Below, in pieces: positions 23,741 to 34,830 of a stretch of DNA of 64,000 nucleotides. The notes below the pieces were generated by a model. It saw nothing but the letters and a program-made list of their open reading frames with translations. It had not been told where the DNA came from and ran no database searches. A program made the position numbers and the translations under genes. Source of the DNA: Eledone cirrhosa (taxonomy: Eukaryota); NCBI GenBank assembly GCA_964016885.1, contig OZ024740.1, positions 361,770,001 through 361,834,000 of the forward strand, read 5' to 3'. Each line of letters starts with the position of its first letter. The stretch's first letter is position 1.

Positions 23741-23836
23741 ATCCACCGAGGAATTCAGCTAGATTCCCGCCGCTAGAGTACCAGCGCTTTAGTTCGGATG
23801 TAGCTGTTGAAACGGCCCGAGCTCAGCCGTCGGGGT
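23741..23836 (+). ncRNA. type I hammerhead-like motif (C3:G8, U4C), homolog of 33128-33221
   Basis: ATCCA-CCGAGGA-ATTCAGCTA...TAGCTGTT-GAAACGGC...GCCGTC-GGGGT. Confidence 0.6.
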
Positions 23837-23867
23837 CCTGAATTTGTTCATATATATATATATATAA

Positions 23868-23954
23868 GAAAAATTATGACCCCGACAGCAGAGTTCAAGC
23901 CGTTTTGACCGGGTCGAAACGGCTTGAGCTCTGCCGTCGAGGTCATACTTTTTC
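23868..23954. repeat. fold-back made of the 3' half of the same hammerhead family
   Basis: TATGACCCCGACAGCAGAGTTCAAGCCGTTTTGAC / GTCGAAACGGCTTGAGCTCTGCCGTCGAGGTCATA; another 3' half at ~52110-52145. Confidence 0.75.
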
Positions 23955-24220
23955 CGATTACCCACTCTACTACCCTAAGTATTGAGTACTCTGGTGCGTT
24001 ATGGTCCATCTGGTTCCTTACAACAATTCCTTCGTTGTCCATAGAATCATTTGATAATATATATACACCATTTCCTCTCCCAATTAGCATAATCAACCAC
24101 ACAAAAAAACAATTAAACCAGGCTATAAGATTATATATATATATATATATATACGTTATTCCGGGTTGAATCGGAGGTAACCACAGTAAGTAAGGTACTC
24201 AATACATAGCAGAGTATAAA

Positions 24221-24339
24221 AGTTTTAATATAGAAGAGATTCTACAGGACTAGAACTGTTTCATTCTTTAGATGATTCCTGATGATTTCTAAAGAATGAA
24301 ACAGTTCTAGTCCTGTAGAATCTCTTCTATATTAAAACT
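24221..24339. repeat. perfect fold-back, 52-bp arms, 15-bp spacer, 5'-truncated hammerhead in spacer/right arm
   Basis: 24221-24272 is the exact reverse complement of 24288-24339; CTGATGA-TTTCTAAAGAAT-GAAAC-AGTTCTA-GTC; abuts (TA)n; related fragment at ~32800-32895. Confidence 0.9.
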
Positions 24340-24654
24340 ATATATATATATATATATATATATATATATATATATATATATATATATATATGAGATGATA
24401 TCAAACATTTTAGTTTACGCAGTGTACGTGCTCTGATTGTAAGGTTTCACGGGAATGCATATGGAGCTGACAATTATTTGTAGCCAGCATAGTGTGTCAG
24501 TTTACAAATAGGTCTCATGCTATTTACCTGTGTTCAATTATTACGTGAACGTTTGTAATTCAAAACAACGGCTTAGCGATTTTTACGATTACTGACAAAT
24601 TCAAGCAACGTACCTGCACCAAAATGTGCATGACGCTTTAGTATTGGTTGAAGC

Positions 24655-24800
24655 CTTCGAATTAGCAGAGTCGTTAAAAAGTCGAATAAAATACTTTGCA
24701 CTCTTCGTTCCGTTTGTTAACGCCTTGAGTTTAAATCGTGCTGAGGTCAACTCTGCCTTTCATCATTTCCAGGTCGATAAAAACATACCAGTCCACTAAT
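24655..24800 (+). mobile_element. SINE, Meta/MESC-like family, degenerate
   Basis: TAGCAGAGTCGTTA head; GAGGTCAACTCTGCCTTTCATC...GGTCGATAAAA...TACCAG core. Confidence 0.65.
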
Positions 24801-30860: not shown

Positions 30861-31079
30861 CCACACCAATCTGTAGCTGTATATATATATATATATATAT
30901 ATATATATATATATATATATATATATATATATATATATAGTTGTTATATAGTAAGGTGCATTATTGGTTGTGTAAAATGGTCCAATAACTTTATGTTAGC
31001 AATATTAAGTTCTCCACGCTTTTGTATATCTCCAATTCCATTCGAGGGAACAGCTAGATGATGTAAAACGGAGTATAAG

Positions 31080-32115
31080 TATCAAAATGAAAATCCGAAG
31101 GCAAGGTAAAATTCCAATCATTTAATCACGACACATGTTTCAATAAGAGATAGAGCGATTGTGAAGCCATGATCGATTATCACTGATCTCATCAGGTGAA
31201 AATGAATTGTCTTCAAATTCTTGATATGAGGGAGAAAAAATAACGATGTTCTCTCACAGAATTCATTCCCTCATATGGAGACACACCAGTCAGTCAGAGA
31301 CATGGCGACTGCTATTAGCTTTGGTTGAGGTCATAAAAGTTTTCAGATTTCTATCGCTGCAAAAGACGCTGAACATCAATCAAATCTGTAGGGATACAGT
31401 CAGTCACAGTTAAAAGTGAGTGGATACACGCACACTCCACACCTACATACATCGGCTCGAGGTAAAAAAAAAAATACATATATATACACACATCAACACA
31501 GTATTAAACCCGTAGAATTAGCGTTGTGGGTACACACACTTTCACACACACCGAAATTGAGATTTGACCGACATAACTAACTTTCGGTGAGTGCTGTGTT
31601 GGTACATTCTTATATTTGTTTTTTTCTCGGATATCGCTTCGGTGTGTGTGAAAGTGTGTGTACCCACCCACGCTAATTCTATGGGTTTAATACTGTGTTG
31701 ATGTGTGTATATATATGTATATTTTTTTTTTACCTCGAGCCGATGTATGTAGGTGTGGAGTGTGCGTGTATCCACTCACTTTTAACTGTGACTGACTGTA
31801 TCCCTACAGATTTTATTGATGTCCAGCGTCTTTTACAGCGATAGAAATCTGAAAACTTTTATGACCTCAACCAAAGCTAATAGCAGTCGCCATGTCTCTG
31901 ACTGACTGGTGTGTCTCCATATGAGGGAACGAATTCTGTGAGAGAACATCGTTATTTTTTCTCCCTCATATCAAGAATTTGAAGACAATTCATTTTCACC
32001 TGATGAGATCAGTGATAATCGCTCATGGCTTCATAATCGATCTATCTCTTATTGAAACATGTGTCATGATTAAATGAATTGAATTTTACCTTGCCTTCGG
32101 ATTTTCATTTTGATA
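31080..32115. repeat. large fold-back, ~476-bp arms, ~82-bp spacer, each arm with a hammerhead
   Basis: 31080-31555 is the reverse complement of 31638-32115 with scattered mismatches; hammerhead TCAC-CTGATGA...GAAAC-ATGT-GTC-GTGA at 31126-31199 (-) and its copy at 31996-32069 (+); abuts (TA)n. Confidence 0.9.
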
Positions 32116-32339
32116 TATATATATATATATATATATATATATATATATATATATATATGAGTGCTAAAGCTACAAACCGAATAAGCATACACGCTAGCTT
32201 GGCCGTATACTAGAGCTTCGTCTATGCTGTACTAAAATTTATATATATATATATATTAAGATAAGCAGAACAAGCAAAATTTAACCAATTCTTTAAAATA
32301 AATAAAAAAATATAATTTAAATATTTACCTACTCAAGTC

Positions 32340-32421
32340 GCTCTTACCGATCGGTTTCCCTTTGCAAAACACTAGAAATCCATTGGATTTCTAATGGAAA
32401 AGCAAAGTTCATCAGAGAAGC
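32340..32421 (-). ncRNA. type I hammerhead ribozyme with palindromic stem III
   Basis: Minus: GCTTCT-CTGATGA-A-CTTTGC...GCAAAG-G-GAAAC-CGATCG-GTA-AGAGC; inner hairpin TAGAAATCC/GGATTTCTA. Confidence 0.8.
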
Positions 32422-33114
32422 ATTTTCCTTTCCTAGGGCTAAAGTCCCAGGAACGGCAAAATATATTGCCATCTGCCAGCTAGCACAGATCGAGTGAGGT
32501 CGAAAAATGACCCGTACATGAACCAGTCCGTAGCAAAAGCGGAAGTAAAACATAGACGTGTTGTCTACTTCACTACTAAAAATAGCAGCTAAATAGAACA
32601 ACAGATTTGTTCTCTACATAACGGAGTATATTACAAGAAGTTAATATGCCCACGGGTACTAAATATATATATATATGTGTGTGTGTGTCTGTGTGTGTGT
32701 GTGTAATTGTGTGTGTGTGTGTGTGTGTGTGTGTGTGTGTGTGTGTGTGTGTGTGTGTGTGTGTGTAAATATGTGTGTGTGTGTAGATTCCAAGTGAAAC
32801 CAGGGGTAAACATAGATGAAAAGGTACTCAATGCATTTCTGAATACAAAAATGACGTCTACATGACTAGAACTGTTTTATTCATATGAAAACATCATAAT
32901 TTCATACGAATGAAATCCTACTGTTCATACAAATATATATAATCACATATGCATACAAATATACATACATATATATATATACATACATATATATATATAT
33001 ATATATATATATATATATATATATATATATATATATATATATATATACACATATATATGCATATATATATATATATATATATATATATATATATATATAT
33101 ATATATATATATAT

Positions 33115-34830
33115 AGGAACCAGTAAGACCCCAACGGCTGAGCTCAAGCCGTTTCGACGGCTAATTCTGGACTAAATGAAAATTTATCCTGGTATTTAAA
33201 TAGCCGAGTTTCTCAAGGGGTAATTCCATATATGGTCAAAGTGATTGTCAAAAGTTAGTAGTAATTCTGTGATTGCAAATTAGTAGGGGAGATGGTGGCT
33301 AAACCTGCCAGTAGGAGAAAAAGAGGAGGGGGTGGAGTAGACCCAATCATGCGTTGGTAGTGCCAGCTACAGCTGGGCATGAGGTCAAAGAAGATACTGG
33401 GGAGGGGGAGGGGGAGGAAGTCGAAACGGTAGGTAGAACAATGAAGGGTAAAAATATAAATATGAAAGAAAAAATACTGAGAGTGATGAAAAGCGAATAA
33501 GTGTAAAGAAGAAAGAGTATAAAAGCAAGTTCTACGACCTAAGTCTCTAGCTATTGTTAGGCTAGATAAATAAATAAAGAAAGAAATAAATAAATAAAGA
33601 AATAAATAAAGAAATAACGAAATAAGTAAATAAACTAGGTGGGACGGAATAGGCAAGGACCCTTTTAAGAGGTATAAGTACGTAAATCATACGGTGACGA
33701 GTCAACAAATGGGGCCAAAATACTAAAGAAACTACCACGAAATAAATAATAAAGGTTTCTATCCCGGGCACAAGGCCAGCAACCACCCAGTGCAGCAAAG
33801 TAAACTAGTACGAGATAATAATTCTGAGTCCCGAAAAAAATATATACTAATGCTAACTCTAAAGGTACCGCTGCGCTACAAAAGATCTTATACAAGCTAC
33901 ATGAAAGTTCGTACGAAGTAAAGGTAGAATACGGAAAAATAAATTCAGAATCCACCCCGCCCAAAAGAAAGGAGAAGAAAGAAATACTGAAACGGGAAAA
34001 TAAGGCATAAGTGCTACTAAGAAATAAAGAAGGCACGGAAAATAGGGGGAGCGGTCGGAAAAGGGGGCAAGTATCCGAGGTCTAACACAACTGCTATAAA
34101 AAGCGGAGTCCGCCAAATCTATCATAGACTAGGGGAGGGGGTGGTGGTGCTGAGGCTACAAGGGGCCAAAGGGCAGCCTCGGGTGGGCGAGAAAAGACGC
34201 CGACAAAGAAGAAGAACTGGGATAGAAGGACTAAGGAGGGATGGAGGGAAGAAGGAAATAAAGGAAGCGATAAAAGAATAAAAAGAAGATCTTACGTCTC
34301 CCTTGGCAAGCAGGGCTTACCCATTGCAAAATCGGCAAGTGGGGTGTTATAGCCCTAGTCTACCCCCCCCCCCCCGGGTCATTATGGGGTTTGAGGGCGA
34401 GGTAAGTCCTACGCAATCTATGTTTACATGCAGTAACCAGTTCATCTTTCTTGTTTAGGAGTTGGTCCGTCGAAAACAACATTTGTAAAGTTTCCTCCGA
34501 GCATAAATTGCACGGACGGCGTCCTCCCGTGTAAGAATTGGCTCTGGACAGTAATCTCCAAGTGAGATCATAGGTGATGTTGTTGTCCTTGAGGTCCCAT
34601 ATTTGGCCCGAAAGTGTAGTGGCGTGACGCCGGGCCGGGTTTCGGAAGGTATGTCTATGTTGGTATAGCCGGGTCTTGAAGTCACATGCGGTTAGTCCTA
34701 TATAAGCTTTGTTGGAGGTGTCCGTCCTCACGTTGCACTGGTAGATCACATTACGGTCTCTGCATCTATTGTCGAGTGGGCAGATGGATCTATCCGGACA
34801 GTTGCACCTCCTGGTCGGCTCTCCACTGCT
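33115..34830 (-). mobile_element. 5'-truncated Naiad-type PLE (GIY-YIG + 3' region)
   Basis: RCNCPDRSICPLDNRCRDRNVIYQCNV...AYIGLTACDFKTRLYQH...CNLCSEE...LLNKKDELVTACKHR (34360-34830); 3' region ends with a hammerhead next to (TA)n. Confidence 0.85.
33128..33221 (-). ncRNA. type I hammerhead-like motif, U3:A8 variant, at 3' end of a Naiad-type PLE
   Basis: Minus: ACCCC-TTGAGAA-ACTCGGCTA...TAGCCGTC-GAAACGGC...GCCGTT-GGGGT; sense to the GIY-YIG ORF at 34360-34830. Confidence 0.7.

What the first reader, a model, noticed from the sequence alone, without database searches (positions are those of the whole stretch)
23741..33221. Homologous hammerheads showing C3:G8 versus U3:A8 covariation directly
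Seen: 23741-23836 (+) and 33128-33221 (-) share upstream CCATATAT, stem III GGC..GAGCTCAGCC and GGGGTC, but one has CCGAGGA with stem II CAGCTA/TAGCTG and the other TTGAGAA with CGGCTA/TAGCCG: compensatory changes at 3:8 and in stem II. The U3:A8 copy terminates a Naiad-type PLE in sense orientation. Inference: U3:A8 arose in a second, unrelated family, linking the variant core to autonomous PLEs. Both copies have imperfections (U4C; GUU site; mismatched stem II base).
Basis: partly seen in the sequence, partly recalled or inferred. Interest (0 to 1): 0.7.

Follow-up and report, generated by a model that had tools for sequence, protein, structure and literature searches.

The report
Jumping gene thrived with mismatched ribozyme
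These are two decayed copies of a self-cutting RNA motif at the end of a known kind of jumping gene, but the family tree of their relatives shows that the element kept multiplying for a long stretch with a mismatch in a core base pair thought necessary for cutting, which likely means slow cutting is enough and makes the ribozyme's debated role testable.

Summary
Both type I hammerhead motifs are present as described. The reading 'compensatory C3:G8/U3:A8 covariation on a Naiad element' fails.

Both motifs end one lineage of Hydra-clade Penelope-like elements (PLEs), not Naiad. U3:A8 in PLEs was published in 2014, and this scan had already noted U3:A8 and Hydra elements elsewhere in this genome.

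Genome-wide exact counts are C3:G8 12, U3·G8 61, C3·A8 1,529 and other-N3/A8 4,608 (all U3 among those listed). Positions 3 and 8 are statistically independent.

Trees from the ORF alone and from the 3' end (core masked) give one ladder: U·G, U:A, C·A, U:A. The window's U3:A8 copy descends from a long C3·A8 stage. In that stage the ORF stayed under purifying selection (pN/pS 0.12) and 42 other core and stem sites did not change, against 68 changes in 193 UTR sites. The older steps (C:G, U·G, U:A) are less secure.

Most likely the ribozyme still cuts, slowly, with any pyrimidine-3/purine-8 apposition; the main rival is that cutting is dispensable. No activity or RNA data exist. I found no amplified C3·A8 core in the papers or scan notes searched.

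The parts
23650..23849 (+). 5'-truncated stub (about 200 bp) of an old subfamily (F1) of the Hydra-clade PLE lineage, ending in (TA)n
   Evidence: 80-89% identity to genomic copies; long F1 copies carry RT-EN remnants 44-89% identical (mostly 53-72%) to the F2 protein
23741..23836 (+). HHR1, type I hammerhead with C3 (23746) and G8 (23751); private damage U4C, A10.1 and two stem I changes, so probably dead
   Evidence: hammerhead fold predicted 5.0 kcal/mol above the minimum-energy fold
33114..34838 (-). 5'-truncated copy (1.7 kb) of the young Hydra-clade PLE subfamily F2a: end of ORF, 3' UTR of about 1.1 kb, hammerhead, end at (TA)n
   Evidence: collinear with other copies at 93-98%
34360..34836 (-). 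C-terminal GIY-YIG endonuclease region with CxCx5C linker (CNCPDRSIC), CxxC and CxH motifs
   Evidence: 99% identical to residues 540-695 of the 695-aa frame in L239
33128..33221 (-). HHR2, type I hammerhead with U3 (33216) and A8 (33211); private changes G10.1A (33209) and C17U (33133, at a CpG)
   Evidence: hammerhead fold predicted 1.3 kcal/mol above the minimum-energy fold
23870..24039 (.). Fold-back stub of subfamily group F3 of the same lineage: two arms holding only the 3' half of the hammerhead, one with the 5'-UTR extension
   Evidence: the 3'-half motif has 12,894 exact matches in the genome
52027..52178 (.). Second F3-type stub (3' half of the hammerhead plus inverted extension)

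Best explanation
The two motifs are hammerhead ribozymes at the 3' end of an old and a young subfamily of one Hydra-clade Penelope-like retrotransposon lineage, whose core positions 3 and 8 changed one base at a time and which amplified with a C3·A8 mismatch, most likely because a slowly cutting ribozyme is sufficient for the element. Shown: the clade, the counts, the ladder U·G to U:A to C·A to U:A, purifying selection on the ORF, and a frozen remainder of the core. Inferred: the older steps (C:G to U·G to U:A); that any pyrimidine-3/purine-8 apposition (C:G, U:A, U·G wobble, or the similar C·A wobble) still holds nucleotide 8 near enough to cut at GUC; and that partial cleavage releases or circularises unit-length RNA from tandem transcripts while leaving enough RNA continuous across the site to be copied.
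For: Along 11 subfamily majority sequences the 10 other core nucleotides changed 0 times, 32 stem sites 3 times, 77 loop/flank sites 88 times, and positions 3 and 8 six times, always by a transition and never both in one step. In the C·A interval 0 of 42 core and stem sites changed against 68 changes at 193 UTR sites (Poisson P 4e-7; core alone P 0.03). The young U:A clade is nested inside the C·A grade in an ORF-only tree (33 rows) and in a 3'-end tree with positions 3, 7 and 8 masked (88 rows). AU tests reject C·A as one side clade (p 3e-70) and all U:A as one clade (p 1e-60). ORF pN/pS between C·A subfamilies is 0.12 (17 nonsynonymous, 39 synonymous) against 0.20-1.13 for 4 single copies. 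Insertion ends are the same in C·A and U:A copies: 17 of 18 and 23 of 28 short arms end 17 nt past the cleavage site, 20 of 23 and 14 of 20 long arms 98 nt past it. U·G is also a master state: 21 of 24 F4 matches, 0 U:A. Weak natural cores are precedented: PLE hammerheads cut poorly in vitro (PMC4209133, parts 1-2 read) and a U4C viroid variant stays infectious (PMC3088659, passages). The lineage returned to a Watson-Crick pair after both the F4 U·G stage and the C·A stage.
Against: No cleavage or RNA data. In a pairwise mutagenesis of a type III hammerhead, all single mutants in this region had low activity and only the G:C swap was rescued (PMC9901934, passages), so C3·A8 may be nearly dead. 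Conservation of the core alone during the C·A interval is only marginally significant (P 0.03) and a protein-recognised fold would also be conserved. C3 extends the C run of stem I and favours a mispaired fold in prediction: hammerhead fold 2.7 kcal/mol above minimum in L234 but only 0.3 in L237; the two U·G copies tested are 8.0 and 9.4 above. Every insertion carries sequence from both sides of the cleavage site, which needs no cutting at all. The C·A wobble geometry is recalled knowledge, not tested here.
Confidence: 0.55

Rival explanations
1. Cutting is dispensable. The C3·A8 ribozyme is dead, the element is copied from uncleaved tandem read-through RNA, and the hammerhead fold is kept as a structural signal for the RT-endonuclease.
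For: 1,529 exact C·A matches with the ORF under purifying selection; all copies extend past the cleavage site; single mutants at this pair have low activity in vitro (PMC9901934); Naiads proliferate without canonical hammerheads and the authors call hammerhead function in these elements unclear (PMC8557442).
Against: All other catalytic nucleotides stayed invariant over 11 subfamilies (Poisson P about 1e-5 at the loop/flank rate); 3 and 8 never left pyrimidine and purine in any majority sequence; the lineage returned to U:A.
Confidence: 0.25
2. Rescue in trans. C·A transcripts are cut by the enzyme half of a co-expressed copy with a Watson-Crick core, paired through the self-complementary stem-loop III (double hammerhead).
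For: Stems I and III and the palindromic loop GAGCUC are invariant in all 11 subfamilies, so any two can pair; PLE hammerheads are reported to work as dimers (PMC4209133; PMC6765202, passages); U:A subfamilies of similar age exist (F3a 0.074 vs F3c 0.061 divergence).
Against: It does not explain why the C·A lineage kept its own enzyme-half nucleotides and stem II unchanged; stem III already has 5 pairs, so a dimer is not needed; no U:A sister lineage spanning the whole C·A stage was seen in the sampled copies.
Confidence: 0.1
3. A-to-I editing of A8 restores a C3:I8 pair in the RNA, making an editing-switched ribozyme.
For: A opposite C is a favoured editing context (recalled); inverted arms would form long double-stranded RNA.
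Against: Edited templates would leave G8 in daughter copies. C3:G8 is 8 of 1,537 among C3 copies of the young groups (0.5%), like about 16 of 4,400 sporadic G8 among U3 copies (Fisher p 0.48; one of the 16 later proved to be F4). The basal C3 subgroup is 80 of 100 listed C·A and 1 C:G.
Confidence: 0.03
4. One reading: positions 3 and 8 covary strictly (C:G or U:A) and mismatched copies are only post-insertion decay.
For: 74% of counted cores are Watson-Crick; the two window copies are C:G and U:A.
Against: C·A is 25% of cores and co-segregates with diagnostic flanks in subfamilies 3-6% from their majority; 32 of 43 C·A copies have all other core nucleotides intact; public contigs show U3-to-C at 22-23% of depth in X1-X3 (one sample) with no position-8 variant above 5%.
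Confidence: 0.02

Closest known systems
Hydra clade of C-terminal EN+ Penelope-like elements (Craig et al. 2021, PMC8557442; section 11, passages and supplement parts 1-2 read)
   Same: RWK-like (RWR) and DKT motifs, CxCx5C linker, C-terminal GIY-YIG with CxxC and CxH, (TA)n targets, 3' hammerhead, inverted truncated arms and end extensions.
   Different: All 25 Hydra families with a hammerhead in supplementary file S2 have CUGANGA (C3:G8); this lineage has U3·G8, U3:A8 and C3·A8. The unit is about 3.46 kb (L064), longer than the 'generally <3 kb', with a long stem II and a 5-pair stem III.
U3-A8 minimal hammerheads of Cercyon PLEs in Schistosoma mansoni (Cervera and de la Pena 2014, PMC4209133; parts 1-2 of 4 read)
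   Same: U3-A8 core in a PLE, about 1,300 hits; short helix I, long helix II, G10.1-C11.1.
   Different: Those are minimal motifs without helix III; no wobble or mismatch states and no order of changes are described in the parts read.
Natural hammerhead core variants (Perreault et al. 2011, PMC3088659; passages read)
   Same: First natural U3-A8 covariation; some non-consensus cores keep low activity.
   Different: The passages read describe compensated U3-A8 and other single variants, not an amplified C3·A8 or U3·G8 lineage; its supplementary figures S6-S7 were not seen.
Naiad PLEs (PMC8557442)
   Same: (TA)n insertion, pseudo-LTR and inverted arms.
   Different: Naiads have an N-terminal endonuclease, a DKA motif and no canonical hammerhead; this element has none of these traits.

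Membership tests
Hydra-clade PLE | Single ORF with RT and C-terminal GIY-YIG endonuclease | tested here: met
   695-aa frame in L239 runs RT (YRDDG) to VIY..AYIG endonuclease. Read from motifs; Pfam gave no hit.
Hydra-clade PLE | RWK-type N-terminal motif and DKT in place of DKG | tested here: met
   LRWRTFFY and SDKTGNLY in L064 and L239; RWR rather than RWK.
Hydra-clade PLE | CxCx5C linker; CxxC and CxH around the conserved E and N; no CCHH | tested here: met
   CNCPDRSIC, CNLC and CKH in window 34360-34971; absence of CCHH judged by eye.
Hydra-clade PLE | Insertion into (TA)n | tested here: met
   30 of 30 nearest F2 copies run into TA repeats.
Hydra-clade PLE | Canonical (C3:G8) 3' hammerhead | tested here: not met
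   A 3' hammerhead is present, but only 12 of 6,212 counted cores are C3:G8. This is a variant trait, not a protein-defining one.
Hydra-clade PLE | RT groups with published Hydra families in a tree | not tested
   Published Hydra proteins were not available as tool sequences.
Naiad PLE | GIY-YIG endonuclease N-terminal to RT, with CxC domain and DKA motif | tested here: not met
   The endonuclease is C-terminal and the motif is DKT.
Type I hammerhead ribozyme | Three helices around the core with stem I open | tested here: met
   94.9% of cells paired against 18.6-53.5% for slid controls on 12 hand-picked copies; one compensatory stem II change.
Type I hammerhead ribozyme | Core U4 G5 A6, A9, G12 A13 A14, A15.1-U16.1, H17 | tested here: met
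   Invariant in 11 of 11 subfamily majorities; both window copies carry private changes.
Type I hammerhead ribozyme | Watson-Crick pair between nucleotides 3 and 8 | tested here: not met
   Met in the two window copies, but not in the lineage: 1,529 C·A and 61 U·G exact matches.
Type I hammerhead ribozyme | Self-cleavage after N17 | not testable with these tools
   Needs an assay or RNA ends.
Non-LTR retrozyme | Non-coding tandem unit of 170-1000 nt | tested here: not met
   Both families lie downstream of RT-endonuclease coding sequence.

The most novel reading that the evidence does not exclude
An autonomous Penelope-like lineage went on transposing for at least 10% synonymous divergence, leaving over 1,500 hammerhead copies, with a catalytically dead C3·A8 core before a second mutation restored the pair. 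That would show in nature that hammerhead cleavage is not required for PLE retrotransposition, and would record a compensatory substitution crossing its mismatch valley step by step.
Probability: 0.25. Interest if true: 0.75.

Novelty: new variant of a known kind. Interest (0 to 1): 0.58.

Why it matters
What hammerheads do for Penelope-like elements is an open question (PMC8557442 calls it unclear). This lineage supplies natural, dated alleles of the 3-8 pair (C:G, U·G, U:A, C·A) in nearly the same scaffold, each known to have supported amplification. Five transcription templates would tell whether amplification tracks cleavage rate. If C3·A8 cuts, the core consensus should be widened and descriptor searches for CUGANGA or UUGANAA miss whole families. 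If it does not cut, cleavage is dispensable for these elements. Either way it is a well-resolved record of compensatory change passing through wobble and mismatch intermediates in a catalytic RNA. The original claim alone (U3:A8 on a PLE) is known.

Tried and rejected
Rfam scan found no hammerhead family at E <= 1, only simple-repeat matches. Pfam gave no informative hit on four PLE proteins. The look-up of sequencing runs: no RNA holder listed; this says nothing on expression. A read check on a C·A locus was not obtained, so C3·A8 is confirmed outside the assembly only indirectly. Run X4 showed U3-to-C in one contig at 4% of depth; its kind is unknown and I draw nothing from it. One search did not list the expected difference at 33133; unexplained.

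The tree of family F1 copies (59 rows) was noisy because short copies carried flank, and is not used for the order of F1 states. The idea of a brief C:G master between U:A and C·A (suggested by L149, L152, L252) was rejected. A-to-I editing was rejected. Stem I pairing probabilities were mis-indexed and are not used. The structure was one column off and was redone.

Primary biochemistry on 3-8 mutants (Przybilski and Hammann 2007; Nelson and Uhlenbeck 2008; Martick and Scott 2006; Scott 2013; Lunse 2017) is not held, so no rate constants are cited, and Lunse 2017 may describe such core variants. Paper searches for C3·A8 or U3·G8 natural cores and scan-note searches showed none. The library lacks most subscription papers, and the bioRxiv supplement of 10.64898/2026.07.22.740005 could not be seen.
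Full report
OBSERVATION. Both motifs are at the stated places. HHR1 has C3 at 23746 and G8 at 23751; HHR2 has U3 at 33216 and A8 at 33211. The window lies in a 3.0-Gb genome. HHR2 belongs to a young family: its 29 nearest other copies are 97-99% identical and all read GUC and G10.1, so the window copy's GUU and A10.1 are private. HHR1 belongs to an old family, 81-89% identical; U4C is in 4 of 35 aligned rows. On 12 hand-picked copies the three helices pair in 94.9% of cells against 18.6-53.5% for slid controls.

WHAT CARRIES THEM. 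HHR2 ends a 1.7-kb, 5'-truncated copy (34838-33114, minus strand) that runs into (TA)n. [quoted passage not shown] These are the Hydra-clade traits in PMC8557442 section 11. Naiads have the endonuclease at the N terminus and no canonical hammerhead. Long copies of the HHR1 family carry RT-EN remnants about 70% identical in DNA to the same frame and share the junction sequence downstream of the ribozyme. So HHR1 and HHR2 are an old and a young stage of one lineage. The unrelated U3:A8 family in the window is the 595-bp array at 8141-11340. I had reached the Hydra reading before consulting scan notes, which report the same clade and U3:A8 cores elsewhere in this genome.

DO 3 AND 8 COVARY? Exact genome-wide patterns that fix the flanks gave 75 cores with G8 (12 C3, 61 U3, 2 A3) and 6,137 with A8, of which 1,529 have C3. 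Of the first 100 A8 rows listed, 24 are C3 and 76 U3. The 2x2 table shows no association (Fisher p 0.10; the 2 A3 rows left out). Patterns blind to 3 and 8 gave: subfamily F4, 21 of 24 U·G and 0 U:A; oldest F1 group, 3 C:G, 4 U·G, 1 U:A of 8; basal C3 subgroup, 80 C·A, 15 U:A, 1 U·G, 1 C:G and 3 other of the 100 listed of 108. Public contigs laid on HHR2 show U3-to-C at 22-23% of depth in X1-X3 (one sample, possibly the assembly's own) and no position-8 variant above 5%. Limits: exact patterns favour young copies, and both arms of one insertion and segmental duplicates are counted, so these are motif counts, not insertion counts. By contrast the stem II pair does covary: 102 G:C and 61 A:U of 182 scored copies.

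ORDER OF CHANGES. I extracted 188 complete hammerheads from the fetched loci and clustered 180 with positions 3, 7 and 8 excluded. Clusters were then split by hand into 12 subfamilies, with the core states in view; the masked trees recover the same groups. An ORF-only tree of the 33 copies that hold at least 250 nt of the ORF end gives a ladder: F1b U·G, F4 U·G, F3a U:A, a grade of C·A copies, then the youngest U:A clade, which includes the window's HHR2. A tree of the last 330 nt (88 copies of clusters 7, 8, 9 and 12; L163 and shorter copies left out; core masked) gives the same ladder with several 100/99 nodes. AU tests reject C·A as one side clade (11 rows, including one sporadic C:G; p 3e-70) and U:A as one clade (14 rows, including one U·G and one sporadic C·A; p 1e-60); the groups were named after seeing the tree. 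Along 11 majority sequences the pair reads C:G, U·G, U:A, U:A, U·G, U:A, C·A, C·A, C·A, U:A, U:A. The first three states rest on ages and shared flanks and on C3:G8 being universal in the 25 Hydra families with a listed hammerhead; the F1 tree was noisy, so that part is inferred.

WERE C·A ELEMENTS ACTIVE MASTERS? They carry RT-EN coding remnants (L234, L236, L237). Between C·A subfamilies the ORF shows 39 synonymous changes at 391 sites and 17 nonsynonymous at 1,400 (pN/pS 0.12), from only 3 and 4 copies per side; single copies against their majority give 0.20, 0.29, 0.94 and 1.13. They made insertions with the same two ends as U:A elements, 17 and 98 nt past the cleavage site. A scan note (e1-9505854) gives 19 nt for the short end; the difference may lie in how the first TA is counted.

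WHAT STAYED FIXED. The other 10 core nucleotides never changed, stems changed 3 times at 32 sites, loops and flanks 88 times at 77 sites, and free position 7 three times. Within the C·A interval none of 42 core and stem sites changed, against 68 changes at 193 UTR sites (Poisson P 4e-7; core alone 0.03; the UTR rate may be inflated by indel-rich alignment). The palindrome GAGCUC in loop III is invariant.

HOW IT MOST LIKELY WORKS. Shown: a coding Hydra lineage, single-step transitions at 3 and 8, amplification in U·G and C·A states, and a frozen rest of the core. Inferred (0.55): the ribozyme still cuts after GUC at a reduced rate with any pyrimidine-3/purine-8 apposition, and that suffices. 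Recalled, not tested: nucleotide 8 acts through its 2'-OH, and a protonated C·A pair resembles a U·G wobble. For this: PLE hammerheads cut poorly in vitro (PMC4209133), weak natural cores can be viable (PMC3088659), and suboptimal type I hammerheads are argued to balance cut and intact RNA in viruses (PMC13725137, abstract and passages). Against: single mutants in this region had low activity in a type III hammerhead (PMC9901934), and every copy spans the cleavage site, so templates were either uncut or re-ligated. Rivals: cleavage dispensable (0.25), rescue in trans through the loop III palindrome (0.10), A-to-I editing (0.03; daughters do not show excess G8), strict covariation (0.02).

COMPARISON AND NOVELTY. 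U3-A8 was first seen in nature in 2011 (PMC3088659) and in Schistosoma PLEs in 2014. The element meets the Hydra protein and target traits tested and fails the Naiad test. It departs from published Hydra elements in its core. I found no report of an amplified C3·A8 or U3·G8 core in the paper searches or scan notes; key biochemical papers and Lunse 2017 were not available. Papers seen: PMC4209133 parts 1-2 of 4; PMC8557442 passages, section 11, supplement parts 1-2 of 59; 10.64898/2026.07.22.740005 parts 1-2 of 5; passages of PMC3088659, PMC9901934, PMC6765202, PMC3884650, PMC7151607, PMC7229834, PMC11014351 and PMC13725137.

VERDICT. The lineage behind it is a new variant of a known kind: a natural allelic series of the hammerhead 3-8 pair, including a long-lived mismatch, that makes the function of PLE hammerheads testable. 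Interest 0.58.

Noticed in passing
window 8141-11340: 595-bp tandem array in two inverted arms (3.2 and 2.1 units, 99% identical) with a U3:A8 hammerhead in 5 units and a palindromic stem III; no detectable similarity to the Hydra-lineage hammerhead. Matches the retrozyme described in earlier scan notes.
   Followed up: partly
window 54322-55262 (-): 485-bp tandem (1.9 units, 100% identical) with a canonical C3:G8 hammerhead at 54961 and 54476 and a palindromic stem III.
   Followed up: no
window 32415 (-): Single canonical C3:G8 hammerhead with the same palindromic stem III as the 485-bp family but different stems I and II.
   Followed up: no
window 13672-15861 (-): 729-aa frame of a second Hydra-clade PLE (RWR, DKT, CxCx5C), 39% identical to the F2 protein, with a long Asn-rich insert before the linker.
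   Followed up: partly
window 48945-49583 (+) and L062 4245-4760: GIY-YIG endonuclease fragment of another PLE type, with a different cysteine linker.
   Followed up: no
genome-wide, e.g. L115-L144: 12,894 exact copies of the F3 hammerhead 3' half; most of the 30 loci viewed are truncated inside stem II and fold back into an inverted arm, so they hold no complete ribozyme.
   Followed up: partly
all subfamilies, upstream of stem I: The stretch CCATAT A/T GGA just 5' of stem I is nearly invariant, and its GGAA can pair with UUCC at the short-arm end in the younger subfamilies, forming an extended stem I that closes where insertions end.
   Followed up: partly
L235 904 (+): The upstream pseudo-LTR hammerhead reads U3:A8 while the other hammerheads of the same insertion read C3·A8; a single case, either later mutation or a mixed template.
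   Followed up: no
G000:C2:338328818-338461800: Four C·A hammerhead matches about 44 kb apart, probably a segmental tandem duplication.
   Followed up: no
window 18705-20676 (-), 30419-30943 (-), 36242-39248 (-), 39522-40112 (+): Broken frames that look like a DNA-transposon transposase and LINE-type RT/endonuclease remnants (judged by eye).
   Followed up: no
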